A DNA stretch of 64,000 nucleotides from Octopus vulgaris (GCA_951406725.2 OX597824.1:31930001-31994000); one strand, 5' to 3'. Positions 21,686-46,502 are shown, counted from the stretch's first letter. Numbers and translations: made by a program. The notes: generated by a model not told the origin, from the letters alone.

Positions 21686-21766
21686 TTATGCTTGAAGTAT
21701 ATATGCTGGAGGAGTAGTGAACGCCTGGCCGGATTGCATGTCAACATTACTAGTAGTTTGTACAAC
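21686..21766 (-). CDS. MS4A/CD20-like tetraspan protein, coding exon 5 (last)
   Basis: Acceptor tatattttacAG, then VVQTTSNVDMQSGQAFTTPPAYILQA*. Phase 0, contains a PPxY motif. Confidence 0.75.
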   Translation of the reverse strand, partial: VVQTTSNVDMQSGQAFTTPPAYILQA

Positions 21767-24314
21767 CTGTAAAATATATAAATTTTTAACTGATTAAATC
21801 CCTTTAAGAGTAAAATATTTTTGCTTAGAAGCAACTTTTTTACTATTTCTTTCAATAGACATTTAATTACTTACACCACACACAAACACACTCACACACA
21901 TGGAATTGGCTAATACTCTTTAATTAGAAGTAAAACTGAAGGGTGTAGAATAGTTATTGCATTATAAACTTAGCAGTTTAATGAGGAACTCACTGAATTA
22001 GAAACAGAAACAATAACAGATAATGAAGTAAAAAAGTCCACTATTTGTTGGATCGACAAAGTTCTGATGTACAATCACTTCTTGAGTGTACATACCATCA
22101 TTTAGGCTTCCAATAGTTCCTGGTTGTTATTTCCCCTTTAATTTTATTTACTTTTTTAATCACTACATACTGAAGAATTACCCTAAATTGGGGCTAAAAT
22201 GAGGAATGACTAATTTCAATAATTTCTTCTCTTTAACGTCATGGTGCATAAGTGTACCAGGAACAGAACCAGGTGTAATTCTGCTTCAAGCACCCCATAT
22301 TACCCTTGTAACTTTCCTTGTTAGTTTGTCACTCAGATGAATCCATGTATTTCAATATCTTTCTTCCTATAAATACATTTAATAGCATTTAAGCAAAATA
22401 TTTGGACTGCCTGTATTTTAAACTGTGATTTTTAAAAATTCAAAATATTAAAAATAAAATAATTCTTTTTAAATTTCGAAAAGTTAAAAAAAATTTTTTC
22501 ATAATCATATGAATTCCCTTTCGAAGAATGCAAATTTGCACAAATTTTCTGAAAATTCCAAAAATTATAAAAAGATTACATAAGGTTATAAGGGGTACCT
22601 AAACCAGAATTCTGCTGAGAGTCACTCCTGCAAATTGTAAAGAAACTATAGAGAATATTTTACAGTGAATTTTTTTATCTTTTTGAGTTTTGATAATTTC
22701 ATATCATGCCATTTTCCTGTGATTCTTTACATTTGACCTAGATATTACAATTTTTTTTTTGAATTTTTGATCTTTGTGGTATCTAAGAATCAATATTGAT
22801 GTGTATGAGTTAAAAAAATTTTTTTTTTCAAATGCAATTCTGGAGAATTGAAGGGGCATTTACTTAATCTTGTCTTACTCATTTTGCCACATCTAAATTA
22901 TCTTCTGTATGCTCATAGAGAACAGAGATGATTTTCTGAAATAGTGTTCTGAATATGTTATAGTGTTTTTAATGTATTTAGAGCTGATGTAGTTTTTGTT
23001 TGGAAGTGAACACTTGTAAAAAATTTAATTTTCTCAGAGTTAAAAATGCAGAAATATTATTCATTGTGCCCACCACTCCTTACAGGAAACTGAAAAAGCA
23101 GACTTTCGGAGCACCTGTCATATATGTTAGAATTTCCATGTCTATGTCAAGATTTTCCATTTCTTTCATGCATTGTAAAACAATGGAGGGAATCATTTTT
23201 AAAACAAAAAGTTTTTAAATCTCTGTCTTTTAAATGCTCAACTCCCTCCCACACACACTCACCATGCCTTTGGAAAAGCAACAACTACTAAAATTATATA
23301 CTTTTCTTTTTCATAATTTTCTGTCATTTTATCATTCTATATTCTGAAACATTTGTAATTTGCATTAGAGAAAAATATCTTAACCCCACTTCCCTCCTTC
23401 GTTGTACTTTTCACAATGAAGGAAAAGTCAAACACTGCAAGAGGATGTGTGAGAAAAAAACTTTGAAAAGTGTATCTATAAAGCATCATTTTCAGTTGTT
23501 TGTTTAAACTTTCTCTGCTAATACGCCAAATTCCTTATATACAGTATATGGGTTTTGAAATTATCAACCCATGCTAGCATGGAAAGCGGACGTTAAAAAA
23601 CGATGATGATGATGATTAAGATATTTCTTCTTAATATGAAATCAATGGTAGTCTTAATACACAAATAAAGAGTATATATATATATATTTGTACACCTTCA
23701 TTATCATCATCATCATTATCATCATTTCATGTCCATTTTCAATGCTGGCTTGTCATGCATGGTTAGACTGGAGCTGACAAGCTGGAGAGCTTCATTAGCC
23801 TTAAGTTATCTATTTAAGCACAGTTTCTATGACTGGATAGCTTTGCTAACTCCAACCCACTTTACAGAGTGTTCTGGACAGTTTTAACGTGGCACTGGCA
23901 CCAGTAGGGTCGCTAAGTAACTTGTAAGACAAGGACCTCTTAGTAGAGAGAGAGAGTGGAACTGAGCGAAGTGGCTATGTGCCAGGTGAGAAAGTGTGAA
24001 AGAGGGACAGAGATAGGTGTCTTACTATAGATGAGATACTAGGCTATCCCAGTAGGTAAAGGAAGGTGAGAAATAGTTAGGCAGAGACAGAGTGAAAAAG
24101 AGAGGGAAATAGATGGTGTTGGAGATGTATTGGGGTCTACCCAGAGGGAACAGTGGTGGGGAGTATAAACAGTACAGAGGTAATATGTTTAGAGATTTGG
24201 TCGATACCAATCTAAAAAGAGCAACTGTCACACATTGTAAGAAGGCATAAAAGGTATGAATTTTTCTTCTTGAAATAATAGAAATGATTATTAAAGAAAA
24301 TAAATTGAACTTAC

Positions 24315-24434
24315 TCTTGTTCCTGAACAGCAACAGCAAATTGATGAAGAAACAATAGCCAAAATAAATTCCACACTCATAACAAATGCAGCACAAGCAA
24401 ATAAAACATGTAAGCCATAAATGCCATAGTAAAG
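24315..24434 (-). CDS. MS4A/CD20-like protein, coding exon 4 (TM4 + Cys cluster)
   Basis: Acceptor ttctttcctttacAG, donor GTAAGT, 120 nt: LYYGIYGLHVLFACAAFVMSVEFILAIVSSSICCCCSGTR. Confidence 0.88.
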
Positions 24435-25094
24435 CTGTAAAGGAAAGAAAAAACAAAAAATATTTTAATGAGAAAGAAAATGTCATAGCTGATCAAAAAA
24501 TCAGTAATAACCTTGAATGTATGCAAATCTGTCAATTTTTTTAAAATCCAAATTCCCCTTAGTATCTTATTTTTCATACTTATTCACACTTACAAACATT
24601 TTCTTTCATGTATTTTAATACCATAACCTTACAGAATAAAAAGTTGTTAAGAAAAAAAAATGCTTCAATGACTTCAAGATTCCAAGCTCAGATATATCAG
24701 TGTAAAGTAATCTTTTTTGTAAAAAGTAAAACTCTGCCACAAACTATGAGTGATTTTCATTGCTTAGTTGAAAGATGGCTTAGCTCTTCTAAAAAATAAA
24801 ATAAAACAAAACAGCCACCTGTTAAATATTTAAAAAGTTTGTTTTATTTTCTATAAAGTTTATTTTGATAAGTTCTTATGAGGCACTTTCTGATAATATT
24901 GATAGGATTTTCTTCAGATTTCTAAATGTTTAATGTTAAACATTGTTTGTTAAAAATGATACACTAGCAAAATAACTTTAGCAGAGAAAACAAAACAGAA
25001 TTTAAAATAGTTAATGTGTCATATTTCTTGAAATTAGACAGCTAAGATGCATCTATATTTTGTTTTAAAATAATGTATATATTATTTTACTCTA

Positions 25095-25502
25095 CTTGTG
25101 AAGACCTGTTGAGGTAAGTGGAAATCAAATCAAATCAGATCAAAATCGAAATCGATCAACGTCAATGGAAATTGTAGCTATGATACCAGTGCCAGTGGCA
25201 CGTAAGAGAACCATCCGAACACGGCCATTGCCAGCACCGCCCCAACTGGCCTCCATGCCGGTGGCACATAAAAAGCACCATCCGATCATGGCCGTTGCCA
25301 GCCTCGTCTGGCAGCTGTGTCGGTGGCACATAAAAAGCACCCACTACACTCACGGAGAGGTTGGTGTTAGGAAGGGCATCCAGCCGTAGAAACATTGCCA
25401 GATCAGACTGGGCCTAGTGCTGCCTTCTAGCTTCCCAGACCCCAGTTGAACCGTCCAACCCATGCTAGCATGGAAAGCGGAAGCTAAACGATGATGATGA
25501 TA
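25095..25502 (+). mobile_element. RTE LINE 3' UTR fragment with (GAT)n tail
   Basis: Matches 32885-33275. Confidence 0.85.
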
Positions 25503-25878
25503 TATATATTTTGAACACACCATGATTCAGAATAGCTGAAGCATGTGTAAAGTAAGCCTTAGCTGTGAAGATTAACATGATGTGAAAATATACTATTGTT
25601 CTCTTCAGTAAACATAAAAATAATTGGGAATCTTCTTAGCAATCAGTTTTGGGATAATTGTCTTGTCCCTCATTAAAAATGTATCGCTATTTTTCAACAA
25701 TCCAGAACTTTTTTTTTTATCTAAATTACTATATTTATAGCAGTAACTTAACAATATAACATTAACAACAGTCTTAACTTGTATATTTTGATTTAATTTT
25801 CCCATTCCATAGACAAATCATTTAAGTACTTTGTACTAAAATGCTTCTACAGAAAAATTCAATTAAAATACTACTTAC

Positions 25879-25968
25879 AATCCATACTGAATGAATACTA
25901 AAACAAGTCATTCCAGCAATTGCGAAGAAACATGCTGACAAAATGGCAAGGACCATGTAGGCAATTTT
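25879..25968 (-). CDS. MS4A/CD20-like protein, coding exon 3 (TM3)
   Basis: Acceptor atatttctttacAG, donor GTAAGT, 90 nt: [30 protein letters not shown]. Confidence 0.88.
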
Positions 25969-26292
25969 CTGTAAAGAAATATCAAAGAATTATTTGGCAT
26001 ATATATTTGTGTGTGTGTGTGTGTGTGCACGTGCATGTGTGTGTGCACGCACGTGTGTGTGTGCATATGCATGTTTTTATATGGCCAAAGCTGTAAGCTT
26101 ATACACTTATACATATAAGTATATATTCTATGTTTCCATGAACACCCGTGTAAATATGCGTGATTGTATGACAGAAACAAAGACACTGAGCTATGTGAAA
26201 ACTAAATATGCATTTATGTTTATGAGTAAGATAATATATCTAGTATTGGTATTGCTAACGAAAAAGTTAAATAACTTTGCTGTAATTATAGA

Positions 26293-26315
26293 CTATATAT
26301 ATGTGTATGTGTGTG

Positions 26316-26347
<32 letters not shown>

Positions 26348-26596
26348 TACACATATATATATATATATATATATACGTATATACATATATATATTGTGTA
26401 TATGTATATATATGTATATATATATGTATATATATGTATATATATATATGTATATATGCATATATATATATGTATATATGTATATATGTATATGTATATA
26501 TATATGTATATATGTGTATATATATGTATATATATATATGTATATATATATGTATATGTATATATATATGTATATATATATATGTATATATATATA

Positions 26597-26634
<38 letters not shown>

Positions 26635-26697
26635 CGTATGTATATAAATATATATATATATATGTATATATGTATATATATATATATATATATGCAT
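26293..26697. repeat. Compound (TA)n/(TATG)n microsatellite
   Basis: Seen directly. Similar arrays lie at 555-673, 27829-27970, 28860-29063, 31150-31341, 57984-58161 and elsewhere. Confidence 0.95.
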
Positions 26698-26744
26698 ACA
26701 AAGGAGCCATACCCAATGATGGGTGTAGCAATTAGAGCAAGGTC

Positions 26745-27565
26745 GTCAACTGCTACAAAGGTAAAGTAATGCTTTAGATACAAATAATTACATAGGTATG
26801 AAGCCGTTGGATCAGGTAATGAAGGTCACAGAGAGGGTCATAGCCCAACTAATTAGGGAGAGAGTCAGTTTAGATGATATACAGTTTGGGTTCGTGCCAG
26901 GGAAAAGCACCACTGATGCTATATTTCTGGTAAGACAGCTGCAGGAGAAATACCTAGCCAAAGATATATCTCTATACCTGGCTTTCATTGACATGGAGAA
27001 AGCCTTTGACAGGGTCCCCTGATCCCTTATCTGGTGGTCAATGAGGAAACTAGGGATAGATGAATGGTTAGTGAGAGCTCTGCAAGCCATGTACAGGGAT
27101 GCTGTCAGTAAGGTGAGGGTTGGCAACGAGTACAGTGAAGAATTCTGGGTAGAGGTAGGGGTCCACCAAGGTTCAGTCCCCAGCCCCCTCCTATCATAGT
27201 CCTCCAGGCGGTGACAGAGGAATTCATGATAGGATGCCCCTGGGAGCTCCTCTATACTGACGACCTTGCTCTAATTGCTGAGTCACTATCAGAACTCAAG
27301 GAGAAGTTTCAGGTGTGGAAACAAGGATTAGCTAATACCAAAGTCCTAATAAGTAGGAAGGCAGGCAAACCACAAATCCCTTCAGGTAGATGGCCCTGCT
27401 CAATCTGTAGATAAGGCGTAGGTAGAAATTCCAGATGTACCCAGCGTAAGCTATGGACTCATAAGAGGTGCAGCAATATCAAAGAACTGGGAAGATAACT
27501 TTTGTATGTTTCAGATGCTCAGAAGCAATAAACACTAAAAATGTGCAAAAAACAACTTCCGCAAC
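26745..27565 (+). mobile_element. RTE LINE RT fragment, copy 1
   Basis: [28 protein letters not shown] and LLYTDDL, with stops and frameshifts. Confidence 0.92.
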
Positions 27566-27823
27566 ACAGTAATATAATTTTTCTCAAACACTTTAACAGA
27601 GCAAGAAGATGGGAGCTGTCATCTCACTCTTGTCCTTTATTGTAAACAGACACAGGCCTCTAGTCTTAGATTTAGTAGTTGATAAAGAGATATATGAATT
27701 AGAAAGCTGTAACCCCAATGGGTTTCATGCGATTCTTGAAAATGTAGTCTATTCTTAGCTCCAATAGCAACAACATTAATTTCTTCCATCTTGTGGACTT
27801 GGTATATAAAAACGGAAAGAAGC

Positions 27824-27912
<89 letters not shown>

Positions 27913-27938
27913 GTATGTATGTATGTATGTACATGCAC

Positions 27939-27969
<31 letters not shown>

Positions 27970-28637
27970 TCAACATCACAATCAAGGAACGGCCATTTAT
28001 AGGCCATTCACCCACTAGAAATAACAGCCAAAGCTTCAACCGCAAAATAACATTAATTCCGCAAACCAGGAGAAAATTAAAAAACATTTACCCTGTAATT
28101 TCTTATACGATGCACCGTTTCATCTACTGTTTAATGGTAAACTAACCTGATTAAATTAAATCAAGCCAATCTTCCATAGGCCCTTAGATTCGTCAGTAAG
28201 AAATAGCCACATCGGAACAGATATTTTCACGAGGCATTTTTGTCCCTGCCTCGGCAATATCTGACCTAAAATTTTCAAATCATCGCACTCGCGCCAAATT
28301 TATCGGCAGCAAATAAATATAAGCCGCCGATTCCATTACGGAATCAACCAGAAAATTCATAATTAATCAATATAGGGTGCCAAAAAAATTTTGTAGAATT
28401 TTTTTGCCACCAGCGGCCTATATTGATTAATTATATATATATATAGCTATATCTCTTTGACTGCTATTTCTAAATTCGGTGTGTTGGTGAGGCAACTCGT
28501 TGCTAAACCCTTAATTACTTAGTATATATATATATATATGTATGTATGTATATGCATATATACATATATATATGATGGGCTTCTTGAGAAAAATTATATT
28601 GTGTACAACTCGTTAAAATTCTATTTATGTATTTGTG

Positions 28638-28724
28638 CAGCTGATGATGGCACTCCATTTAAATTGAGGTAATGATTGCATTGTTCAATTAAAGGGTTGT
28701 ACTGCAACGCTACTTGATATCCTG
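28638..28724 (+). ncRNA. Degenerate long-stem-II hammerhead motif (second copy 30932-31018)
   Basis: cag-CTGATGA-long imperfect hairpin-GCAA (for GAAA)-...TC-ctg, inside a short TA-flanked insert. Confidence 0.4.
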
Positions 28725-28901
28725 TTGATTATTTTGATTTAATTCACCTTACTTTGAGCTGTGCTGATAATATTAGATTGACTTGGTGCTTCAACAGAAG
28801 TACCTAATTCAACTGAATCTCAAATATATAATATATATATATATACATATATAATTATATTTATATAAATATATATATATGTGTGTGTGTGTGTGTGTAT
28901 G

Positions 28902-29885
<984 letters not shown>

Positions 29886-30143
29886 ACAGTAATATAATTT
29901 TTCTCAAACACTTTAACAGAGCAAGAAGATGGGAGCTGTCATCTCACTCTTGTCCTTTATTGTAAACAGACACAGGCCTCTAGTCTTAGATTTAGTAGTT
30001 GATAAAGAGATATATGAATTAGAAAGCTGTAACCCCAATGGGTTTCATGCGATTCTTGAAAATGTAGTCTATTCTTAGCTCCAATAGCAACAACATTAAT
30101 TTCTTCCATCTTGTGGACTTGGTATATAAAAACGGAAAGAAGC

Positions 30144-30206
<63 letters not shown>

Positions 30207-30232
30207 GTATGTATGTATGTATGTACATGCAC

Positions 30233-30263
<31 letters not shown>

Positions 30264-31162
30264 TCAACATCACAATCAAGGAACGGCCATTTATAGGCCA
30301 TTCACCCACTAGAAATAACAGCCAAAGCTTCAACCGCAAAATAACATTAATTCCGCAAACCAGGAGAAAATTAAAAAACATTTACCCTGTAATTTCTTAT
30401 ACGATGCACCGTTTCATCTACTGTTTAATGGTAAACTAACCTGATTAAATTAAATCAAGCCAATCTTCCATAGGCCCTTAGATTCGTCAGTAAGAAATAG
30501 CCACATCGGAACAGATATTTTCACGAGGCATTTTTGTCCCTGCCTCGGCAATATCTGACCTAAAATTTTCAAATCATCGCACTCGCGCCAAATTTATCGG
30601 CAGCAAATAAATATAAGCCGCCGATTCCATTACGGAATCAACCAGAAAATTCATAATTAATCAATATAGGGTGCCAAAAAAATTTTGTAGAATTTTTTTG
30701 CCACCAGCGGCCTATATTGATTAATTATATATATATATAGCTATATCTCTTTGACTGCTATTTCTAAATTCGGTGTGTTGGTGAGGCAACTCGTTGCTAA
30801 ACCCTTAATTACTTAGTATATATATATATATATGTATGTATGTATATGCATATATACATATATATATGATGGGCTTCTTGAGAAAAATTATATTGTGTAC
30901 AACTCGTTAAAATTCTATTTATGTATTTGTGCAGCTGATGATGGCACTCCATTTAAATTGAGGTAATGATTGCATTGTTCAATTAAAGGGTTGTACTGCA
31001 ACGCTACTTGATATCCTGTTGATTATTTTGATTTAATTCACCTTACTTTGAGCTGTGCTGATAATATTAGATTGACTTGGTGCTTCAACAGAAGTACCTA
31101 ATTCAACTGAATCTCAAATATATAATATATATATATATACATATATAATTATATTTATATAC

Positions 31163-33308
<2,146 letters not shown>

Positions 33309-33352
33309 TATATATATATATGTAAATATAATATATATACATACATACATAC

Positions 33353-33404
<52 letters not shown>

Positions 33405-33482
33405 GTGTGTAAATCAATGCATGCTAGCTTGGAAAGCAGATGCTAAATGATGATGATGATATATATATATATATATATATAT

Positions 33483-33580
33483 GTAGGTCCCGGGTTGATT
33501 CGGGGTTAACCACAGTAAGTAAGGTACTCAATACTTCCTGAAGATTTCTCTTGAATGAAACAGTACTAGTCCTTCTATAT

Positions 33581-33934: not shown

Positions 33935-34639
33935 AACATAAAGAAGGAAGAGAGAGGAAAGAAAGATCCCAGAGCGGGCAACGGGGATAGAGAAAAAAAA
34001 CGACTGGTGTTTAGGAGTTACACATGGTGAAAGGCGGATGTTTACGATAACAAGAGCAAAGTGGGTTTTTAAAGGCAAAAGAGTGGAGACAAGGTTGGTA
34101 ACGCAACAGATGTGTGTGTATGTGTGTGTGCGTGTGCGTGTGTGTATGTGTGTGTGTGAGGCGAGATAAAAAAACAAAAAATATATGTATGTGTTAGTGT
34201 GTGCGTCTGTGTGTAGGCGTGTGAGGTAGGGCGAGACGGTGGTCAGCATAGCAGCAGCATAGCAGACAAAGGTCAGTAGTAAGAAAAGGAAGGAAGGGAG
34301 GGAAGGGAGGGAGGGGAAGGGGTGGGGGCGTCTGTAGCGTGCCAGCGTGTGTTGAGTAGTAGTGTGTGTGTCCAGTGTCGTGGTAGTATTAATGGCGAGT
34401 AGATTGAATGTGTGTAAGAGTAATGTATATATTTAAGCAATGTGTGTATATGTGTGCGCGTGTGTGTAACGAAAAAGGGGGGGGTTAAGGAAAAGGACTC
34501 CAGCTGAGGGGAAGATGGAAGAGTGGTTCCGCGGAGACGGGCGTGGGAAAACCCAACGACAAGCGACGATCCCAGGAACGGGCGGGAGGTCTCGTCGGGT
34601 CCAAGGGCGAGGTGCATGCGGCGCGTATGCGTGCGCCTG

Positions 34640-36740
34640 CGAGTCTGCGCGTAAGTATGTGTGTGTGTGGATGTGTGAGTGTGTCTGTGTGTATGTCTGG
34701 GTGGCAGTGTGTCCGATGAATGTATGTGAGTATGTGTGTATATATGTGTGTGCATAGATGTATGTCCGTGTGTGTGTGTGTGTGTGTATGTGTATGAGTG
34801 TGTATGTATGTACGTGTGGGTGTGGGGAAGTGTGTGTATGTGCATGTGTGTGCGCGAACATACAGGTGTGTGAGTGAGTGTGTGTGTGTGTATGTATGTG
34901 TGAGTGTGTATGTATGTGTGTGTAGGATGCATGTATGTGTATGGGTGTATGTATGCGTGTGTGTATGTATGTATGTGTACGTGCGTGTGTGTGTGTGTAT
35001 GCGTGTAGGTGTGCGCGTGTGCATGCATGCATGCATGTGCGTATGTGTGTGTGTGTGCATGTGTGTGGGTATATATGTATGTGCGTATATGTGTGTGTAT
35101 GTGCGTACATGTGTGTGTGTATGCATGTGTGTGTGTAGGTGTGTAGGCGTGTGTGTATAGGTGTATGTATGTAAGTATGTATGGGTGTGTCCGTGTATGT
35201 GTGTGTATGTATGTGTGTGTATGTAGCTGTGTGGGCGTGTGTATATGTGTGTGTATGTAGGTGTGTGGGCGTGTGTATATAGGTGTATGTATGTATGTCT
35301 GGGTGTGTCCGTGCATGTTTGTGTGTGCGTGAGTATGCATGTGTATGTAGGTGTGTGTGTACGTGTGTAATGTATGTGTGTATGCGTGTGTATGCGTGCG
35401 TGTGTGTATGTAGGTGCGTGTGTATGTGTGTGGGAGTGTAGGTGTGTGTGTGCGTGTGCGTGTTTATGTTGGTGTGTGCGTATGTGAGTGTGAGTGTATG
35501 GGTGTTTGTCATGCATGTGTGTGCGCGTGCAGGTGAGTGTGTGTGTAAGTATGTGTGTGTGTATGTTTGTGTGAGTGTGTATGTGTGTATGTCTGTGTGT
35601 ATGTATGTGCGTATAGGAGTATGTAGGTATGTGTGTGTGTATGTATATGGGTGTATGTATGTATGTGTGTGTGTGTGTGCATGTGTATAAGTATATGCGT
35701 GTGTGTGTATGTGTATGTGTGTGTGTTTATGTATGTGTGTATGTATGTGTGTAGGCGTGAGTGTGTAGATGTATGTATGTATGGGTGTGTGTTTGTGTGT
35801 GTGTGTAGGTAGATGTGTGTGTCTGAGTGAGGGTATGGCTGTGTAGGTGTGTGTGTGTATGAATGTAAGTGTGTGTGTATACAAGTGTGATGTATGTATG
35901 TAGGTGTGTGTGTGTGTGTGTATGTGTACGTGTGCGTGTGTATGTGTGTGTGTGTATGCGTGTGAGTGTGAGTGTATGGGTGTATGTCTGTGTGTGTGTA
36001 TGTCTGAAGTGGGTATGTGTGTGTATGTATGTATGTGTGTGTGTGTGCGGGTATGTGTGTGTATGTGTGTGTGTGAGTAGGTGTGCGTGTATGTATGTGG
36101 GTAGGGATGCATGCGAGTGTGTGGGTATGTATGCATACATACGCATGCGCACATCCGAAGCAAGCCCACACACACGAAGCGCGCTCACGCACACAACGCA
36201 CAAGCAGTACAACGCAAGCCCAAAGGGGCCGACCAAGCCCCCAGCGCGCGCCAAGGCGCGTGAGCGCAAAGGCCCTCGAAAGCCCCGCTACGCGGGAACC
36301 GAGGATCCATCAGCCATAACAGGAAAGCAGAAAAGAGGGGGGGCTGCCTGGATGCAAAAAGGTGTATGTGTGTGTGCATTCAGTGTACGGGTGTGCATGT
36401 GTGGGTATGTATGTATGTATGTGCCTACATGTATGTGTGCATGTGTGTGTGTGTGAAGTATGTACGTGCGGTGTGTGTGTGTGAGTGTGTGTGTATGTAT
36501 GTGCGTATGTATGTGTGTGTGTATGTGTGTATGTATGTCTGTGTGTGTGTGTGTGTGTGTAAGTATGTATGCGTGTGTGTATGTATGTATGTGTGTGTGT
36601 ATGTGCATGTTGGTTTGTATGTTAGTGTGTGCATGTGTGTCTGTAAGTGTGTGTGATTAAATGTGTGAATGTATGTACGTAGATGGGTCTACGTATGTGT
36701 GTGTGTGAACAGGCGTGTGGGAGGTAGGTGGGTGGGTGTG
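34640..36740. repeat. About 2-kb degenerate (GT)n/(GTAT)n low-complexity tract inside the PLE 3' UTR
   Basis: Seen directly; it is the source of the His/Thr-rich pseudo-ORFs. Confidence 0.93.
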
Positions 36741-37810
36741 TGTGGGTGGTGTGTCCGGAAAAAAAAAAACGGATCTCAAGAGGAGGGGGCTGTGTTAAGT
36801 CCGTGTGGGGTGGTAGTTTGTAGGGTGAAGATGTAGCGTTGCTCCAAGTGGAGCCTGGAAAGTGGGTGACCATTGTGGGGGGCGAGACCAAACACTGAGA
36901 TGTCATCTCGGGAATGGCCGGCCGAGCGGAAGTGGCGTGCGACGGGAGAAAAAGAGTGTAGGCGAACGTCCCTCAAGTGTTCAGTGAAACGGTCGGACAA
37001 CCGGCGTCCCGTCTGTCCTACATACAGCATCCCGCATAGGTTGCATTTAATGCAGTAAATAAGGCCAGACGAGGTGCACGTAAAAGAGTGCCTAATGCGT
37101 ACAGTATGCAGGTTGGAGCCGGTGACAGCGGTGGTGCTGGTGATGAAGGGGCAAGTGTTGCAGCGGGATCTAGAGCAAGGGAATGATCCGTGTGGGACTG
37201 AGGGGGAAGGAGAGAGGGTGCTGTGGACCAGGAGGTCACGCAGATTGCGGGCTCGTTTGAAAGAGGACAGGGGTGGGTTAGGGAAAATGGGGCGGGTGGT
37301 GGGATCAAGCTGGAGGCGACGGAAGGCACGTAGTATCTTGCGACGAAGGGGTAGGGTAGAGGGGTGGAAAAGGAGGGGGAAGGGGGTGCGGTTGGGGGGT
37401 GGGCGGGGGGAAGGAGACAGGGCGGTAGTGCAGTCGATGCGACGGGCGCGGGTGAGGGCATCAGAGAGGAGTGTGGGTGGGTAACCTCGGAGTCTGAACA
37501 TGCGGGCCAGGTATTGAGATTGGGTCTCGAAATCCTAGTCGCGGCTGCACAAACGTCGGAGGCGGAGGAACTGGGAGTAGGGGATGGCTCGTTTGGTGTG
37601 GAAGGGGTGGGAGGAAGAGAAGTTGAGATAGAGGTGGGAATCCGTAGGTTTGAAGAAGGCGGTGGTGGTGAGAGAGCTGGAGGGGTGATCGATGCAGAGA
37701 GAGATGTCAAGGAAGTTGACAGAGGTGTTGGAGATGGTGGAGGTGAATTGAAGAGAGGGGTATACACACACACACACACACATATATATATGTAAATATA
37801 ATATATATAA

Positions 37811-37857
<47 letters not shown>

Positions 37858-37865
37858 CATACATA

Positions 37866-38261
37866 TCTTTATATATAAAAATAAGGTTGTGTGCTGTCTG
37901 TCTCCTACGATTTAGATTCCTAACTACTCCCACATTTTGCGGTGCAGTTTAACCAAAACCGGATATCTTATAGTCGTGATTCATATCAAGCCCTTCTGGG
38001 TATTAGCGCGCGTCTATGATGAGTCTACGATTTAAAAAAATTTACCATCAATTTTTCCCATTTTAATGCATTTTTGGCATATATAAGGGAAGTAACTCTC
38101 TAAAAATTTATTATTAAATCTCAGAACGTAAAAATCTACAGTAACCCCCCCCCCCCTTTGTGGTTAGCCATGTTGAGATGGCTATTATACTTTACATCTC
38201 TAAAAATGCTTATATAGTTATTTCCCTTACAAACCCGAGCAACGCCGGGCGATACTGCTAG
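37866..38261 (+). mobile_element. Non-autonomous Helitron (family H1)
   Basis: 5' TCtttatatataaa, 3' hairpin cccgagcaacgccggg followed by CTAG. Inserted between A and T, no TSD. Confidence 0.88.
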
Positions 38262-38439
38262 TTATATATATTTTAGGAGTACTACTGCATTACTTAAATC
38301 CATATATTGTGATTTAAATTTACACACACACCCAACAGGCTTCTTTCAGTTTCCATCAGCCAAATCCAATAACATGGCTTAGGTCAACCAGGGTCTATAT
38401 GGTTGAAAAATGACTTTTTTACCACACAGCTTTGCTTGC

Positions 38440-38498
<59 letters not shown>

Positions 38499-39475
38499 TG
38501 TGTGTGTGTGTGCGTGTGGCTCATGCATTTTATCAAACATACAGTAACAAAAGGTTCTTAAAACATAGGTTTTTGTATACATTAGTTGTATCAATTATAC
38601 TTTGTACATCAGATTTATTTCACCACCACTCCCTTTGGAAGGAGGTTATTTTTCATACTTGAATACCTTTCCCAATATTAATATTCCTTACTATGAGCTA
38701 AAACTAATACTTATCATCTGGCCAGAAATTAGATTGAAGTCAAAAATTGAAGTTAAATTCCATATCTTGCCAAGTAGATAACTTTTGACCTAACCATATC
38801 TTAACCACTTAGCAGCTAATATGTCTAACGTGTATTAGAATTGACAGAAATTTCAACAAAAACAAAATAAACAAACAAACAGCCAAAATGTCTGAAAGCG
38901 TCGCTTATCTAGATAAGTGAAATCATAATGTATTTAAAATAATCAAGTAAAATGAAAATATTAAGTATTTTGTTCCTGGTGAAATAAGAGAGACAGACAG
39001 ACAAACAGGGAGAGAGAGAGAGACAGAGATGTTGGGAAAAAAAGAGAATAGAACTTTGGATTCATCTCAAAGATTAGCAATTACTCAAGTATAAGAATTG
39101 GAACCAAAAATCAAATTGGAATTAATCAGACAATTTAAAAAAATCTTAGCATTTCAAGGTACAGGACACAAATTTTTTTAATAATTCAGAGATTATAGAT
39201 AACATATCTTTGTCCTGTACATCTAGAGGAACAAAGGGAAAAGAAAAGAATGAGCAAGTGTTGGTTGCAGCCAGTTTAACTAATAGAAGAATTCTGAATA
39301 ATGTAATGGTTATTGTTGTTGTTCTTGTTGTTGCTATCTTAGTTTCTCTTGGTTGCGAAAGCCTGTGCTCTAAGACATTCTAATTTATGGGATTCCTGTC
39401 TTTTAAAAAATGTCTATATTACCAAATGAGTCATCCCTTGTTTTAAAAATGGTGGATTATTTGGTTGATATTTCT

Positions 39476-39856
39476 TAAGGTTGTGTGCTGTCTGTCTCCT
39501 ATGATTTAGATTCCTAACAACTCCCACATTTTGCGGTGCAATTCAACCAAAACCGGATATCTTATAGTCGTGATTCATATCGAGCCCTTCTGGGTATTAG
39601 CGCGCGTCTATGATGAGTCTACGATTTAAAAAAAACTTTACCATCAATTTTTCCCATTTTAATGCATTTTTGGCATATATAAGGGAAGTAACTCTCTAAA
39701 AATTTATTATTAAATCTCAGAACGTATAAAGCTACAGTAACACCCCCCCCCTTTGTGGCTAGCCATATTGAGATGGCTATTATACTTTACATCTCTAAAA
39801 ATGCTTATATAGTTATTTCCCTTACAAACCTGAGCAAAGCCGGGCAATACTGCTAG
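39476..39856 (+). mobile_element. Helitron H1 copy
   Basis: Near-identical to 37866-38261 and ends in CTAG. Confidence 0.85.
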
Positions 39857-39889
<33 letters not shown>

Positions 39890-39895
39890 ATATAT

Positions 39896-39948
<53 letters not shown>

Positions 39949-39968
39949 CACATACATATATATATATA

Positions 39969-41145
39969 CTAGACAGTATCGCCCGGCGTTGCTCGGGTTT
40001 GTAAGGGAAATAACTATATAAGCATTTTTAGAGAGTTATAGCCAAAAAATAGCAAAAAAAATGCATTAAAAATTTTTAAAAGTTTAAGGTAAATTTTTTT
40101 TTAAATCGTTGACACATCGTAGATATTTTTAGAGAGTTACTTCCCTTATATAAAAGCGAAAAAAATGCATTAAAATGGAAAAATATGATGGTAAATTTTT
40201 TTTAAATCGTAGACTCATCGTAGACGCGCGCTAATACCCAGAAGGGCTCGATATGAATCACGACTATAAGATACCCGCTTTTGGTTAAACTGCACCGCAA
40301 AATGTGGGAGTAGTTATGAATCTAAATCGTAGGAGACAGACACACAACTTCACTCTTATTTAAAGTTGCTTTTTTTTTCAGTCATAGAGTTAGATTTATG
40401 AAGGTCTCCAGTAGAAAATCCTTCGAATTCTGACTCGCTGCTTGATATAATGAAATTCGTATCCATTTTTTGTCAGAATTACAAATTTTGAAAACACAAT
40501 AGGAACAAATTTCGGAAAAAAATCTCCCATAATTCACGGAATTAAAATTACACTTCGATTTTTGTACAAAACTGTATTTGAAGTGTTTACGAAGTATAAT
40601 ACGTGTTTTCACGAATGTACTAAAGAGATTTACTCTGATATTCTCATTTAAATATGAATAGGTAAATTCGGGCGGTTTGGTAACGAAAGGATTTATATAA
40701 GTGTCGTCTGTTTATACATAAACACTGTTTCATACTTTCAGTTTAGTCTTCCTCAAATCACTCTGTCGCTATTTACTCTCTTCCAAGAACATTTTCACTC
40801 ACTGTTATCTGTTAGCTTGCCATACATTTTACTCATGTATCTATCAGCGTGATAGACAGAAACAAATATTACATCTAGTTTCACTTTATTCGTTGCACAC
40901 TGTGTGTGTGCGTTTGTGTGTGCTGTAAACCAGACTAAGAAAAGCATTTGACATACACACCAGAATGTGAGTTTTCTGTAAATTTTGCTTAATTGGAGTT
41001 TAAATTTTAAAAACTGGACCTGGCAAAACCCGATGCATTCTACTCTTAAAAATGCTAGGTAAATTGTAATTGAAGAAATCCTATATTGTAGATTTCTATA
41101 ACTGACAAAGGGAGGCAGATAAAATCTGCCTTTTATAATAAGAGA
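39969..41145 (-). mobile_element. Composite non-autonomous Helitron (H1 3' module plus additional 5' module)
   Basis: CTAG and hairpin at 39969-39997. The distal 5' end tctcttattataaaaggcagattttatctgcc at 41145 is shared with 50966 and 53390. Confidence 0.8.
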
Positions 41146-41576
41146 TATATATATATATATATTAGGGAACTATTAGACCTGACACCGTGTATTAGCCACT
41201 GTTTTCAAAGTGATGAATAGCTTTTTGCGGAAACCATGGTTCGCTTTGTTTTCTGACTTTATTATCATCCTATAATCATCTCCTAACAATGACTTTTATG
41301 ACTTTTATTACTACCTCAGTCCATCTAAATGTATATATTTGTCGTTACCTGTTATAAAAAGTCTTTTTTATTTGCAATGAGCATTTTCATTGATTTTTCA
41401 TCTTTTACTCTTACATTTCCACGTGTATTTTATAATTTCTTTTTGTGACATATTTCTACTATATATATATATCTTTATATGTGTGTAAATATAATATTAT
41501 ATATATAAGAATTTTTTTGCGTAATGAGATAAAAAAACCAAGGCTGTGTAGATATTAGAACATTTATAGATAGAAA

Positions 41577-41628
41577 GTCTTACACCTGTTTCCAGGATAT
41601 TTGTTAATTATATCCCTTCATCAGAGAC
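41577..41628 (-). ncRNA. Type I hammerhead ribozyme
   Basis: gtct-CTGATGA-agggatat-aattaacaa-atatcctg-GAAA-caggtg-TA-agac. Confidence 0.8.
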
Positions 41629-41932
41629 GGTGTGAGAGGATGGTTAAGTCATAATTAGTTTAGATGTGATACAAAATAGAGAGTGAGGTGGAAGAATGAA
41701 AATTGATGCAAGATATGTAGGGATATTGAAGTTTTAGATCCATTTTTTAAGGCAGAATTGTATATATGTCATATTCCAATACCCTATGAGTAAAGTCCAA
41801 AAGTCCAACAGAGTTTTAAATGGGTCCTTCCAAATATAGAGTTTATACACTATGTATGATTCCCTTATGAATGAGATCTAGCAGTTTTTGAAGTTGGTCA
41901 TGTATTACAACACATATTTTTGATATATATAA

Positions 41933-41973
<41 letters not shown>

Positions 41974-42100
41974 TTTGTATCTATGTATGCATTTATATGT
42001 GGATGTATGTATGCATTCTGTTATTTTAGTTTAGGGGTAACTTTAACTAATCATCTACTTAGTAGCAAAGTTGTGAAAGAAAACATTTTGTGTAAATATA

Positions 42101-42144
<44 letters not shown>

Positions 42145-42212
42145 AATTTTTTTGTGTAATGAGATAAAAAAAACCAAGGCTGTGTAGATATTAGAACATT
42201 TATAGATAGAAA

Positions 42213-42264
42213 GTCTTACACCTGTTTCCAGGATATGTGTTAATTATATCCCTTCATCAGAGAC
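42213..42264 (-). ncRNA. Type I hammerhead ribozyme (tandem copy)
   Basis: Same as 41577-41628 with one substitution in the stem II loop. Confidence 0.8.
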
Positions 42265-43195
42265 GGTGTGAGAGGATGGTTAAGTCATAATTAGTTTAGA
42301 TGTGATACAAAATAGAGTGTGAGGTGGAAGAATGAAAATTGATGCAAGATATGTAGGGATATTGAAGTTTTAGATCCATTTTTTTAAGGCAGAATTGTAT
42401 ATATGTCATATTCCAATACCCTATGAGTAAAGTCCAACAGAGTTTTAAATGGGTCCTTCCAAATATAGAGTTTATACACTATGTATGATTCCCTTATGAA
42501 TGAGATCTAGCAGTTTTTGAACTTGGTCATTCCAAGTAGAGAATTTGTGTGTGTGTGTACATATGAAGGTATGTTTGATTGTTGGTATGGCTGTTTTTGT
42601 ATATGTGGAATAGTATTAAAACACATATTTTTGATATATATAAGTATGTGTGTGTGTATGCGTGTGTGTGTGTGTGTGTGTGTGAATGTTTGTATCTATG
42701 TATGCATTTATGTGTGGATGTATGTATGCATTCTGTTATTTTAGTTTAGGGGTAACTTTAACTAATCATCTACTTAGTAGCAAAGTTGTGAAAGAAAACA
42801 TTTTGTGCATTTATCCTTTAAAACTTAAGAGGGTTCACAGATTTTTATTGTCTCAGTTATCACGATCATTTGCAGTTTATAAATGAAGGAGCTGTGTTCT
42901 CTCCACAAGAACCAAGAACTTTGCTCCAGACAGGATGGTGTATATCCTGTTGCTCTAATTATTTTAGGTATAAAACTGAAATATTAGGTACTGTTCTTTC
43001 TGTCAAGTACAAAGTTTGTTAATGAAAAACTGAATGGATATAAGATTTTCTACTGTGTTACTAGCTTTAACTAGATATAGTTAGTATGTGTGTAGTTATA
43101 CAGTTATTACAATAACTTTTACTCCTTTGTCTTTTTAAGCATTAAAAATGCATTGAATAACTGAGAGAAAGGGTAAATGATTAGAGAATTTTTAC

Positions 43196-43267
43196 CAGTG
43201 AATTGGTTCTGTGTTCAGGATTTGACTTCAAACCAGTAGAAATTCCAAGTATTCCAACTGCAATAAT
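43196..43267 (-). CDS. MS4A/CD20-like protein, coding exon 2 (end of TM2)
   Basis: Acceptor ttgttttgtttAG, donor GTAAAA, 72 nt: IIAVGILGISTGLKSNPEHRTNSL. It continues the TM2 helix from exon 1 (SLW|IIAVGILGI). Confidence 0.85.
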
Positions 43268-44199
43268 CTAAACAAAACAAATATTATGCAATAAAATAAT
43301 CTGCAGAGAAAAATTGGAAATATTAAAATAAATGCGAAATTTTAAACTAAAGTATTAACGAATTGAAAATAGCATCAAAAATAATAAATAACATAAATAT
43401 ATATTTTGCCTTCATCCACCATACTCCATCCAGATTGACTGTTAAAAGAACGTTAGTGTTTTCTTGATACCATTATAGCTCACTGCTACTTTCCAATAAC
43501 TCATACCACCTTCTGAGATAATTCAGGGATCTTCAAGGTGGTTTTTCATTTCTCAAATTCCATATAGGTGATAGAGCCAAATTTATTTTTTGGCATCTCT
43601 CTGTGGTCAAGTTTATCTGTCAACAGCAATGTGTTGCAAGAACACAGCCGGACCCTTTACTTGTACTAATAAATAAAGCTGAAGGGTAACCTATATTAGC
43701 AAACTGTTTATACATATGGGAATGTGATGCTGCTGTGACATGAAAATGTCCAAGAATACATTAAAAGGAAATCATAAGCGATTTGACTGGTTAGTAAATA
43801 CTTCTTCATAAATTCACTACATCAATCTGTTTAGATGGTTTGTTTCTTCTTCATCTACATACTATAAAGAACTGTTCCAAACTTACAAGCAATGGCCTAC
43901 CTCTACTTCAGCCCACCTAATGTAGTTATTTATCTTCTAGTGTCCTGATGGTGTCTGAGTCATAAATCTTCTACTAAATAATTTGCTCCATCATTCCTCA
44001 TTCGAACTCTTTCATTCTGAAATATCTGTTCTACAGAAGTTAAAGTTTTACATTAACTGCTTTAATTTTACCAGTCTGAGAGAGCCTCCATGGAGAAAAA
44101 CTTCCCCATTCACAGCTCACTTTGCACTCAACTTCATACTATGCATACTTGATCCATCTCCTTTAACCCTAACACTTTCCACTCTACCAACATCTCAAC

Positions 44200-45700
44200 C
44201 TTGCATACAACTATGCCATGTACAAAAATACTCTTGATTGCTTCAAACTAGTAAGGCCACTGATACTGACAAGGTCCCATCTGTTACATTCAGTTACATT
44301 TTACACCGGATCTTAGAACTTGCTCTTGTACTCCACAAACTCCCTTGAAACATGCTATAGTGTGTGCCATTTCTAAGAATGGTAATTCCACTGACTCATC
44401 AACCTCCATCTTATTTCACTTACTTAATTATTTTTATGGTTACAGAGATGACTACTAAAAGTGACACTCTCTAACATCTTGAATGTCCCTCTCTCCCTCT
44501 ATCTCCTCATTGACCACCAGTATGGCATCTGTAGAACCAAATCTATCAGAGAACTATCCAAGGGATTTCATTTTAGGTTCAGTGAAAATAATCTGAAGGT
44601 TTTTGCTCTAGGGTTTTACCCTGCTGGCCAGCATGTGAATCTCCTGTTGTATCATCCCACTTACAAGCACAATCCATCTCTCCTCTCATAAATCTGTAGC
44701 TTTGTAGATGATCACACAGTCATGGGAATGTGATAATGAAGCATTTATTGTCTAACTCTCAACCAATCAGATATGCCCCAGGATTCAGTTTTGTTCCCTA
44801 AACTCTTCGCTCCATACATCAATCATCATTTACTGTTACATTCAGTAATACTCACTCAAATTATAACTCTTCATTCCTCTTTAACTTTTCCAACCATGCA
44901 TCATCCATACACAATCTAGAAAAAACATGTTGAATATGCACATATTCTATGAATGGAGATCTCATATGTCACCTCCATAGAAGCCGAAACAGTATTATTT
45001 GTTGTTCCTTCTCGATCCATGCTTGGCTCATAAGGGCTGGTTTCCCGGTTTCTTGGTGTATAGGTTCCCCACCTGGACGGGATACCAGTCCATCGCAGTT
45101 GAGCTGCAAGATGCAGGAGGAAAGAGTGAGAGAAAGTTGTGGCGAAAGAGTCAGCAGAAGTTTTGCCATTACCTTCTGCCGGAGCCACATGCAGCTTAGG
45201 TGTTTCGCTCATAAACACACACATCGTCCGGTCTGAGATTCGAACCCGCGATCCCTCGACCATGATTCCGCTGCTCTAACCACTAGGCCATGTGCCTCCA
45301 AAGAGTATTGTACTATAGCCTCAACTACAATCTTCACAATTGCTCTAATTGTTGGGTCCAACTATCACTGAAGACCTTTCCTTAACATAGCTAGGATTGT
45401 ATGCCAAATACTGACCATTCTTTTCTGGGCTACAAAATATTTCTGCCTCAACAACTGCCGACACTTTACAAAGCTCAACTGAGGATTACAATGAAGTATT
45501 ACTCTCATCTGGGACTGTGTTTCTGCTACATATATTCACATTCTGGACCATATTCAGAGAAGAAAAAGCCCTAGATCAACAAGCATAAAATCAGGCACAG
45601 ATATGTTCTAACCTTTGGCACACTGGTGTACTATATCTTCTCTTATCTGGGACAGTGTTCCTGCTATGTATACTGAATCTCTGGACCAATATGTGGTCCC
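44200..45700 (+). mobile_element. Highly decayed LINE RT remnant with inserted SINE
   Basis: Remnant motifs KATDTDKV, DHQYG and PQDSVL, interrupted by a SINE. A similar remnant lies at about 47700-48510. Confidence 0.5.
44998..45300 (-). mobile_element. tRNA-derived SINE (family D)
   Basis: Head tggaggcacatggcctagtggttagagc...ggttcgaatc. A partial relative lies at about 9300-9423. Confidence 0.82.
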
Positions 45701-46301
45701 CAAATAGTCTGTAAGGGAATTAGGTCTCAAATAAAACTAACACTGACTATGATGACCCATCCAGCCAATACCAGCATGCAAAAGCAGAGGTAAAATGAAG
45801 AAAATGGCTTAAATATTTTAGCAAATAAACAATGAAAAATGAATTAAAGTAGAAATTTGAATCCTTTTCTACCAATAAAATACAATTATTATTTCCATGG
45901 AATATGAGGCATTCCCAAAATAAATTAAATAAACACTTGGTGTCATCATTATCAGCCAAAGGCATTACTTTATGGATATTTTAAACCTGTGAATTCATTT
46001 GTTATCCTAGGATATTTGAAACAGTTTGATTTCTACTGTAAGATATTTTATTGCATGTTCAGTTTGGGAGTACTCCAAACCATTTTGGGTAGGTTTCAAT
46101 TAGTCTTAACTATCAGCCTATGACCCCAACATCAAAAATGGTAGTATTGGTACCTCATAACAAATAAAGAAGAAACAGTTTGAAAACTAAGTCAAAAGTT
46201 CAAAGGGTTTTTTTTCCATCAATAAAAACAACTGAAAAATTTAGTTGTATCAATACATCTTTGATCAATATAAAACTGTCACAAAGAACACCAATACTTA
46301 C

Positions 46302-46502
46302 CCATAGACTTGCAATAAATGATCCAGCAGCAATCCTTACAGACAGATCATCATAAAGATAACTATCATAATAAAAACCATGGTAATTGTAGTATTTTTG
46401 TGTTGTAAAACCGATTATTGAACAAATGAGACAAAATATTCCATTAGTCAAATGCATTGCTCCCGTTATTGTCATCGCAAGGTAGTTGAAACCAACAATC
46501 AT
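46302..46502 (-). CDS. MS4A/CD20-like protein, coding exon 1 (TM1, loop, start of TM2)
   Basis: Acceptor cttttctttatatttAG at 46516-46517, ATG at 46502, donor GTAAGT at 46301. Reads MIVGFNYLAMTITGAMHLTNGIFCLICSIIGFTTQKYYNYHGFYYDSYLYDDLSVRIAAGSFIASLW. Confidence 0.88.

What the first reader, a model, noticed from the sequence alone, without database searches (positions are those of the whole stretch)
21686..46502. Hidden five-exon MS4A/CD20-like tetraspan gene missed by the ORF track
Seen: five minus-strand exons (46302-46502, 43196-43267, 25879-25968, 24315-24434, 21686-21766), all with AG/GT boundaries and phase-0 introns. They splice into a stop-free 187-aa protein with four hydrophobic helices, a Tyr-rich first loop (YYNYHGFYYDSYLYDD), a post-TM4 CCCC cluster and a C-terminal PPAY. 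Established: this layout matches CD20/MS4A-like proteins, mouse MS4As act as non-GPCR chemosensors in necklace olfactory neurons, and PPxY motifs bind WW domains. Inference: this could belong to a little-studied cephalopod MS4A-like receptor family, possibly chemosensory or immune.
Basis: partly seen in the sequence, partly recalled or inferred. Interest (0 to 1): 0.75.

Follow-up and report, generated by a model that had tools for sequence, protein, structure and literature searches.

The report
Fast-evolving octopus CD20-like gene cluster
This is a real, spliced octopus gene for a small four-helix membrane protein distantly related to CD20/MS4A, one of eleven neighbouring copies whose predicted outward-facing loops are changing unusually fast, so it likely serves as a recognition protein at the cell surface, although its tissue and ligand are untested.

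Summary
The gene is real. Five minus-strand exons with four phase-0 GT-AG introns give an open 187-aa frame. One 1,196-nt contig from a run guessed to be RNA carries all five exons in order. It is not hidden from databases: O. sinensis has correct 188-aa uncharacterised models, and the O. vulgaris models fuse it with its neighbour.

It is the last of 11 paralogues in about 670 kb that share one exon plan. The octopus proteins fail Pfam CD20 directly (best 13.7 of 27.9 bits). Their profile reaches CD20-positive mollusc proteins and, transitively, FcεRIβ/MS4A2 (E 2e-8). It is therefore a remote CD20-like superfamily member, not a shown MS4A orthologue.

New here: amino-acid-changing differences between young copies exceed intron divergence about fivefold (loops about tenfold). 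Most positively selected sites lie in the two predicted outer loops, and exons are mosaic between copies. Tissue and ligand are unknown, so chemosensation is one option; I rank host-microbe recognition higher. Clustered, positively selected MS4A-like genes are published for ascidians, and this scan noted CD20-like clusters in Trichoplax and a sea urchin.

The parts
46503..46574 (-). 5' untranslated stretch, at least to 46574, contiguous with exon 1 in the contigs seen; a splice acceptor (AG at 46517-46516) lies inside it
   Evidence: X1 contig positions 1-273 = 46574-46302 with no other letters; X2 reaches 46567; a paralogue-type contig in X4 splices in at the equivalent acceptor
46302..46502 (-). 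Coding exon 1 (aa 1-67): very short N-terminus, TM1, Tyr-rich hypervariable first loop (7 Tyr in aa 34-55), first half of TM2
   Evidence: 7 of 14 positively selected sites (36, 38, 39, 41, 42, 51, 55)
43196..43267 (-). Coding exon 2 (aa 68-91): second half of TM2 and the basic, predicted cytoplasmic loop; 72 nt in 11 of 11 paralogues; the reference has Ser77 where all laid runs have Leu
25879..25968 (-). Coding exon 3 (aa 92-121): TM3; 90 nt in 10 of 11 paralogues
24315..24434 (-). Coding exon 4 (aa 122-161): short variable second loop, TM4, Ser/Cys cluster (CCCC, likely palmitoylated; inferred)
   Evidence: selected sites 122, 123, 125, 127, 129
21686..21766 (-). Coding exon 5 (aa 162-187 + TAA): low-confidence, likely disordered tail with one PPxY
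   Evidence: pLDDT about 50 in the model of the O. sinensis relative P0002
21119..21685 (-). 3' UTR with AATAAA at 21539 and 21124
   Evidence: X1 and X3 contigs end at 21126, X5 at 21113; signals
10113..64000 (.). Roughly 57-65 kb unit repeated head-to-tail immediately left of the window, where it carries the near-identical copy g10 (C11:31,894,846-31,917,162)
   Evidence: collinear blastn blocks, mostly 94-99% identical; 0-0.6% substitutions over most of 18-46 kb, mostly 1-7% at the flanks

Best explanation
The locus encodes a spliced, 187-aa four-helix membrane protein that is likely a remote member of the CD20-like superfamily and likely works as a cell-surface recognition protein whose predicted outer face is being diversified by selection, most likely in a conflict with microbes or parasites. 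SHOWN: gene structure, splicing, an 11-gene cluster, and an excess of amino-acid changes over synonymous and intronic changes that concentrates in the two loops. INFERRED from charge, the model and MS4A precedent: both termini and the basic TM2-TM3 loop are cytoplasmic, and the tops of the long TM1/TM2 helices plus the short TM3-TM4 hairpin form one extracellular binding face. In this gene that face is Tyr- and Asp-rich, a composition more typical of protein-binding surfaces than of small-molecule pockets (general knowledge). The Cys cluster after TM4 would be palmitoylated and place the protein in membrane microdomains. The protein has no catalytic or ITAM-type tail, so it would signal or traffic through a partner receptor, as FcεRIβ does. 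The PPxY in this subfamily would recruit a NEDD4-type ligase for turnover. Duplication, exon-scale exchange between copies and point substitution would together generate new binding faces.
For: Homology: a profile of 11 cephalopod proteins finds 83 representatives. 15 of 69 scanned pass the Pfam CD20 cut-off and 21 of 69 match at E<=0.001. hhalign to an oyster CD20-positive protein gives probability 98%, E 2e-13 over 154 columns. The widened profile hits FcεRIβ across all four helices at E 2e-8 and 3e-6. Atlas structure match TM 0.77 to a mollusc CD20-like cluster. The model has four helices, mean pLDDT 85.

Selection: window gene vs g01 differs at 37 of about 420 nonsynonymous sites and 4 of about 138 synonymous sites, against 68 of 3,712 flanking intron bases; loops 18%. 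A conservative recount without the indel zone and tail gives 24/337 vs 2/110, p=0.025, and p=2e-7 vs flanks. Trio omega is 2.7-3.5, p=0.035-0.045. An independent pair, g06/g07, shows 14/452 nonsynonymous vs 37/3,911 in flanks, p=5e-4. Site model on 10 paralogues: LRT 78.7, with 12 of 14 selected sites in loops (10 of 14 with the narrower loop limits); LRT 36.2 with loop 1 removed.

Rate and mosaicism: this subfamily differs 11-14% from the O. sinensis 188-aa proteins, against 1.4-1.7% for g05 and g09. Exons 3-4 are nearest one O. sinensis paralogue and exon 5 nearest two others.
Against: No tissue, cell type, ligand or partner is known, so the 'microbe conflict' step is inference from the evolutionary pattern only. 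The same pattern is reported for candidate chemosensory MS4As in ascidians (bioRxiv 2022.08.15.492342, passages). Direct Pfam CD20 score is below cut-off in 11 of 11 family members, and the cephalopod-only profile has no significant PDB sequence hit. The fold match is tied with designed four-helix bundles (Z 13.7-14.4 vs 14.1-15.1), and Foldseek has no hit at E<=0.001. The codon models are my own implementation (naive empirical Bayes), loop 1 aligns poorly between distant paralogues, and gene conversion can inflate site tests. g06/g07 is not significant against its own synonymous sites (p=0.23-0.24). Zuccolo et al. 2010 (PMC2826416, passages) read invertebrate look-alikes as possibly convergent.
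Confidence: 0.45

Rival explanations
1. The cluster is a small repertoire of non-GPCR chemosensors, as proposed for mouse necklace neurons and ascidian palp cells; the variable loops tune odorant or tastant specificity.
For: Clustered, lineage-specific paralogues with selected extracellular sites match the features listed for chemosensory MS4As; 9 Ciona MS4A genes are enriched in palp sensory cells (passages); mouse precedent as stated in a review passage (PMC7052838).
Against: No sensory-tissue data here. Whole-gene omega above 1 in the youngest copies, including helix residues (3 sites remain, LRT 15.1, with both loops removed), and exon mosaicism suggest a faster arms race than odorant tuning (inference). 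An earlier unverified note on a placozoan array reports copies in different cell types (not tested here).
Confidence: 0.25
2. The fast-evolving copies are gamete or reproductive-tract surface proteins diversified by sexual selection or species recognition.
For: Divergence from sister-species proteins is about 7-8 times that of quiet cluster members; rapid evolution with gene conversion is typical of reproductive proteins, and some vertebrate MS4As are testis-expressed (both recalled).
Against: No gonad data. Selection also acts between paralogues across the whole cluster, which fits a repertoire better than one gamete ligand pair.
Confidence: 0.13
3. A structural or trafficking tetraspan (sarcospan-like or FcεRIβ-like accessory subunit) whose duplicate copies are merely relaxed, the signal coming from misalignment, conversion or assembly error.
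For: The best structural match is the tetraspan chain of the dystrophin-glycoprotein complex (Z 15.1, rmsd 2.5, 138 aligned; identity as sarcospan recalled). g10/g11 are almost identical over long stretches and could be an uncollapsed haplotype.
Against: Relaxation gives omega near 1, not nonsynonymous rates 4-5 times the flanking intron rate while synonymous rates equal it. The signal survives dropping the indel zone, loop 1 and the near-duplicates. Random assembly errors would hit introns equally.
Confidence: 0.12

Closest known systems
FcεRIβ (MS4A2) and the vertebrate MS4A/CD20 cluster
   Same: Four helices with short loops, a clustered multigene family; profile match over all four helices (E 2e-8); structural Z 14.1, rmsd 3.2, 142 aligned; CD20 itself Z 10.5-11.9. 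As recalled, not tested: vertebrate MS4A genes have phase-0 introns in mid-TM2, just before TM3 and just after TM4, as here.
   Different: About 14-16% identity; almost no N-terminal tail; the variable loop is the first, and the second is very short with no Cys pair; no ITAM-type motif in the tail; TM1 and half of TM2 share the exon that holds the start codon.
Ascidian MS4A-like genes (Ciona, Botryllus; bioRxiv 2022.08.15.492342)
   Same: Invertebrate, clustered, lineage-specific expansions with positively selected extracellular sites (passages).
   Different: There the average omega never reached 1 and expression in palp sensory cells was shown; here omega is about 3 in the youngest trio and expression is unknown. 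No direct sequence comparison was run.
Uncharacterised mollusc, annelid and echinoderm CD20-like (PF04103) proteins
   Same: Nearest non-cephalopod relatives; share the post-TM4 Ser/Cys motif and align over the four helices.
   Different: They pass the Pfam cut-off, have longer termini and fall outside the cephalopod clade (SH-aLRT 99 in the quick tree).
Tetraspan chain of the dystrophin-glycoprotein complex (sarcospan; name and CD20-like Pfam domain recalled)
   Same: Top structural match, Z 15.1 and 14.6.
   Different: No sequence-profile hit; a single conserved structural subunit rather than a variable cluster (recalled).
Database models: O. sinensis LOC115216970, LOC115217485, LOC115217545; O. 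vulgaris CAI9729925.1, CAI9729926.1; O. bimaculoides LOC128249092
   Same: Same gene or its closest relatives.
   Different: All are 'uncharacterised' or 'hypothetical' with no Pfam domain; the two O. vulgaris models (268 and 281 aa) fuse exons 1-4 of this gene to exons of the next copy.

Membership tests
CD20-like superfamily (Pfam PF04103) | Score above the Pfam gathering cut-off (27.9 bits) | tested here: not met
   0 of 11 family proteins; best P0003 13.7 bits, E 0.067; 0 of 5 single exons. The spliced window protein itself was not scanned, only its exons, the fused model that contains exons 1-4, and relatives.
CD20-like superfamily (Pfam PF04103) | Homology to curated members by profile search | tested here: met
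   15 of 69 scanned profile hits pass the cut-off; hhalign 98% to one of them; FcεRIβ at E 2e-8 with the widened, transitive profile.
CD20-like superfamily (Pfam PF04103) | Four-helix membrane bundle | tested here: met
   Hydropathy; AlphaFold2 model of the 89%-identical P0002, helices 5-41, 49-80, 86-125, 128-158.
CD20-like superfamily (Pfam PF04103) | Fold specifically closer to CD20-like structures than to other four-helix bundles | tested here: inconclusive
   Top natural matches Z 15.1/14.6/14.1, but designed bundles are tied at 13.7-14.4; Foldseek best E 0.11; Atlas TM 0.77 to a CD20-like cluster.
MS4A family in the strict sense | Groups with vertebrate MS4A rather than with sarcospan, TMEM176 or other CD20-like branches in a tree | not tested
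   No vertebrate sequences were returned as usable proteins; the tree holds invertebrates only.
MS4A family in the strict sense | Shared intron positions and phases with vertebrate MS4A genes | not testable with these tools
   Correspondence is recalled only; the one passage seen says MS4A2 exon 3 skipping removes the first two helices (PMC8776166), which is compatible but not a test.
MS4A family in the strict sense | Clustered paralogues with lineage-specific expansion | tested here: met
   11 loci on C11, 31.31-31.98 Mb, same five-exon phase-0 plan; octopod group SH-aLRT 80 only.
MS4A-type chemosensors | Positively selected extracellular loops | tested here: met
   loop sidedness inferred from charge.
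MS4A-type chemosensors | Expression in chemosensory neurons | not testable with these tools
   Runs carry no tissue labels; gene ids not found in the texts or supplements searched.
MS4A-type chemosensors | Ligand-evoked calcium entry | not testable with these tools
   Needs heterologous expression.
Tetraspanins (PF00335) | Large second extracellular loop with CCG and disulphides | tested here: not met
   The second loop is a few residues with no CCG; 2 of 11 relatives match weakly, best E 0.0017.
Claudins (UniRef label on P0006) | Beta-sheet first loop with the claudin signature | tested here: not met
   No strand in the model; no claudin Pfam family among 11 members.

The most novel reading that the evidence does not exclude
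Octopods carry an unannotated 11-gene CD20-like receptor repertoire, invisible to Pfam, whose youngest members evolve at omega about 3 and swap exons to build new Tyr-rich binding faces. It would be either a second cephalopod-specific chemosensory family beside the chemotactile receptors or a variable innate recognition system. At the extreme, the first exon of this copy splices onto the body exons of its neighbour, giving variable-first-exon isoforms.
Probability: 0.25. Interest if true: 0.75.

Novelty: new member of a known kind. Interest (0 to 1): 0.45.

Why it matters
Cephalopods have few described variable receptor families for immunity or chemosensation. This gives a bounded, testable candidate set: 11 loci with exact exon coordinates, a corrected gene model, and specific residues (36-55, 122-129) under selection. 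It also adds a protostome case to the question of whether MS4A-like genes predate vertebrates, which the 2010 phylogeny answered with no. Without tissue or ligand data it remains a well-supported but functionally open family member.

Tried and rejected
Pfam on single exons: nothing relevant. Cephalopod-only profile against PDB sequences: one hit at E 0.28. Foldseek: no E<=0.001.

Tetraspanin and claudin were considered and rejected on loop anatomy. The GPCR label on fragment P0020 was rejected: it is exons 1-2 of this family.

The longer 268/281-aa database proteins were rejected as fusions of two copies, because X1's contig goes from exon 4 straight to exon 5.

No listed run is on record as RNA and none has a tissue label; shares and depths were not used to rank expression. 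g10-type exon 1 was not seen in the laid contigs, but it may fall under the 95% threshold, so nothing is concluded.

Six gene ids: 0 papers. Supplements: no occurrence in 3 readable files of PMC9712504 (one further file unreadable) or 1 file of PMC13230822. PMC13669787's supplement could not be read. Large marker tables that I could not see may hold the expression answer. Greer et al. 2016 was not held.

No paper on a cephalopod MS4A/CD20-like family appeared in searches; the library lacks most subscription journals. The careful tree did not finish; only the quick tree is used. No complex was folded, since no binding pair is claimed.
Full report
OBSERVATION. The four introns are GT-AG and phase 0, and the spliced frame is 187 aa with four hydrophobic stretches. 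A profile made from seven other paralogues picks out exons 1-4 and nothing else of note among 2,243 open segments of the window. The window is C11:31,930,001-31,994,000 of the own genome. Exon 1 is identical to a protein named Octopus vulgaris by its source, on a contig of the same length as C11.

TRANSCRIPT. Six runs were laid in two calls. One 1,196-nt contig of X1 covers 46574-46302, exon 2, exon 3, exon 4 and exon 5 with a 3' UTR to 21126, in consecutive record positions. The exon 1-2 joint stands in X1, X2 and X4 (three studies) and not in X18, whose contigs cross exon borders. The exon 4-5 joint stands in X1, X2 and X3; the exact exon 3-4 joint in X1 and X5. These runs are RNA by guess only, but the own-genome search showed no intron-less copy among 45 candidates scored. 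One oddity: X1's contig has this gene's exon 1 letter for letter, but at all three downstream sites where it can be told from the neighbour g10 (43239, 43240, 21532) it reads like g10. The simplest reading is private alleles or errors in the reference copy, since Leu77 is seen in 4 of 4 runs and a hydrophobic residue stands there in the other 10 paralogues. A hybrid allele, an assembler chimera or splicing across copies are not excluded.

ANNOTATION STATUS. O. sinensis has two 188-aa uncharacterised proteins and a partial third. O. bimaculoides has a 186-aa one. The O. vulgaris models of 268 and 281 aa fuse this gene's exons 1-4 to exons of g10. So the gene is known as a sequence but unnamed, and it is mis-modelled in its own species.

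CLUSTER. In 864 kb fetched around the window, 11 loci lie between 31.31 and 31.98 Mb, six on the plus strand and five on the minus strand. All 11 give open five-exon frames with GT-AG phase-0 introns; exon 2 is 72 nt in 11 of 11 and exon 3 is 90 nt in 10 of 11. Pairwise identity runs from 23 to 97%; g04 is strongly diverged with a long repeat tail. A Cys run follows TM4 in 10 of 11 and PPxY is in 5 of 11. g10 and the window gene sit in a head-to-tail repeat of about 57-65 kb that is nearly identical in the middle and mostly 1-7% different at the edges. This is a very recent or converted duplication, or an uncollapsed haplotype; two similar genes in O. sinensis favour a real duplication. In the quick tree (47 rows; 36 database proteins chosen from the hits) the cephalopod-type proteins form one side of a branch with SH-aLRT 99, and the 19 octopod rows with 80. 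The cluster members have O. sinensis and partly O. bimaculoides counterparts, so the expansion predates these species.

FAMILY. Direct Pfam tests fail: 0 of 11 reach the CD20 cut-off, best 13.7 bits. The profile of those 11 finds 83 representatives. Of the 79 new ones I scanned 69, leaving out 10 short or partial matches; 15 pass the CD20 cut-off and 21 match at E<=0.001, none of them among the nearest cephalopod-type hits. Those with names come from bivalves, gastropods, an annelid and echinoderms. hhalign to an oyster member gives 98%, E 2e-13. A 48-sequence profile that includes such hits reaches FcεRIβ at E 2e-8 over all four helices; the cephalopod-only profile does not, so the link is transitive. 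The model of P0002 (89% identical to the window protein) is a four-helix bundle, pLDDT 85, pTM 0.79. Its best structural matches are the tetraspan chain of the dystrophin complex (Z 15.1) and FcεRIβ (Z 14.1), tied with designed bundles. Foldseek ranks FcεRIβ first but at E 0.11. The Atlas gives TM 0.77 to a mollusc CD20-like cluster. Verdict: remote CD20-like superfamily member, about 85% likely; strict MS4A membership untested. From recall only, three of the four introns fall where vertebrate MS4A genes have phase-0 introns.

SELECTION. Window gene vs g01 (inverted, 650 kb away): 8.8% of nonsynonymous sites differ, 2.9% of synonymous sites, 1.8% of flanking intron bases; loops 18%, membrane core 5.9%. 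Dropping the indel zone and tail and taking minimal paths leaves 24/337 vs 2/110 (p=0.025). One-ratio omega for the trio is 2.7, or 3.5 trimmed (p=0.035, 0.045). g06 vs g07 shows the same direction: significant against flanks (p=5e-4) but not against its two synonymous changes (p=0.23). Site models on 10 paralogues (g04 left out, 149 ungapped codons) give LRT 78.7 with 14 sites above 0.9. Twelve lie in the loops as bounded, bounds I widened by two residues; with the earlier bounds it is 10. The test stays significant without loop 1 (36.2), without loop 1 and the near-duplicates (31.0), in the equal-length subgroup g06-g09 (32.1), and weakly with both loops removed (15.1). These are my own GY94 implementations without a recombination correction. 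Against O. sinensis, g05 and g09 differ by 3 of 214 and 3 of 174 residues, g02 by 11 of 229, the window gene by 21-27 of 187. Its exons 3-4 are nearest LOC115217545 (1/26, 1/40) and its exon 5 nearest the two 188-aa genes (1/26), which points to exon-scale exchange.

MECHANISM. Shown: a spliced tetraspan gene in a diversifying cluster. Inferred: cytoplasmic termini and TM2-TM3 loop (3 basic residues vs 1 acidic), an outer face formed by the helix tops and two loops, palmitoylation of the Cys run, signalling or trafficking through a partner as FcεRIβ does (PMC8776166, passages), and WW-domain-linked turnover in the PPxY-bearing copies. I commit to a surface recognition protein in conflict with microbes or parasites (0.45), ahead of chemosensor (0.25), reproductive (0.13) and relaxed structural subunit (0.12). 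The ranking rests on rate, mosaicism and loop composition, not on expression.

COMPARISON AND NOVELTY. Zuccolo et al. 2010 (PMC2826416, passages) concluded that invertebrates lack MS4A-like genes. The ascidian preprint (passages) describes 29 Ciona genes, clusters, sensory-cell expression and selected extracellular sites in Botryllus. The mouse chemosensor role was seen only in review or introduction passages. Earlier notes of this scan describe CD20-like clusters in Trichoplax and a sea urchin (not checked here) and nothing for this sequence or genome. Ten literature searches listed under Tried and rejected showed no paper on a cephalopod family, within a library that lacks most subscription journals. 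This is a new member of a known kind, made worth follow-up by unusually strong selection and by the lack of known variable receptor families in octopus. Interest 0.45.

Noticed in passing
window 43239-43240 and 21532: Contigs with this gene's exon 1 carry the neighbour g10's letters at the downstream diagnostic sites; the reference's Ser77 codon is seen in none of 4 runs. Allele, assembly error, hybrid gene or cross-copy splicing.
   Followed up: partly
G000:C11:31,290,617 (outside window): Paralogue g01 has a non-coding first exon about 19 kb upstream, spliced to an acceptor 13 nt before the ATG; no similar sequence lies upstream of the window gene in the fetched region.
   Followed up: partly
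window 46594-46628 (-): A 35-nt stretch bounded by a pyrimidine-rich AG and GTAAGT looks like a small 5' UTR exon; the laid contigs do not use it.
   Followed up: partly
G000:C11:31,486,874-31,518,381: Paralogue g04 is open but very diverged, lacks the Cys run and ends in a repeat tail with ten PPxY motifs.
   Followed up: partly
G000:C11:31,672,492-31,672,629: g07 has a stop three codons earlier than its near-copy g06.
   Followed up: no
window 581-3034 and 62599-63612: LINE-type endonuclease/reverse transcriptase frames (Pfam RVT_1, Exo_endo_phos), duplicated with the gene unit; further fragments at 17677-19690 and 58478-60319.
   Followed up: partly
window 26800-32800: About three tandem copies (period about 2.3 kb) of a reverse-transcriptase fragment inside intron 2.
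   Followed up: partly
window 6997-8679: Fragmented DUF4371-containing, hAT-like transposase (hAT label recalled).
   Followed up: partly
window 36776-37948 (-): GC-rich frames that look like a Penelope-type element with a GIY-YIG-like end (recalled); no Pfam match at E<=0.001.
   Followed up: partly
window 51043-51366 (-): Pif1 helicase 2B fragment, likely from a Helitron (Helitron origin inferred).
   Followed up: partly
proteins P0017, P0018, P0019, P0023, P0024: A further unnamed group of relatives with shorter first loops (two of them placed inside the cephalopod-type clade); suggests a separate expansion in another lineage.
   Followed up: no
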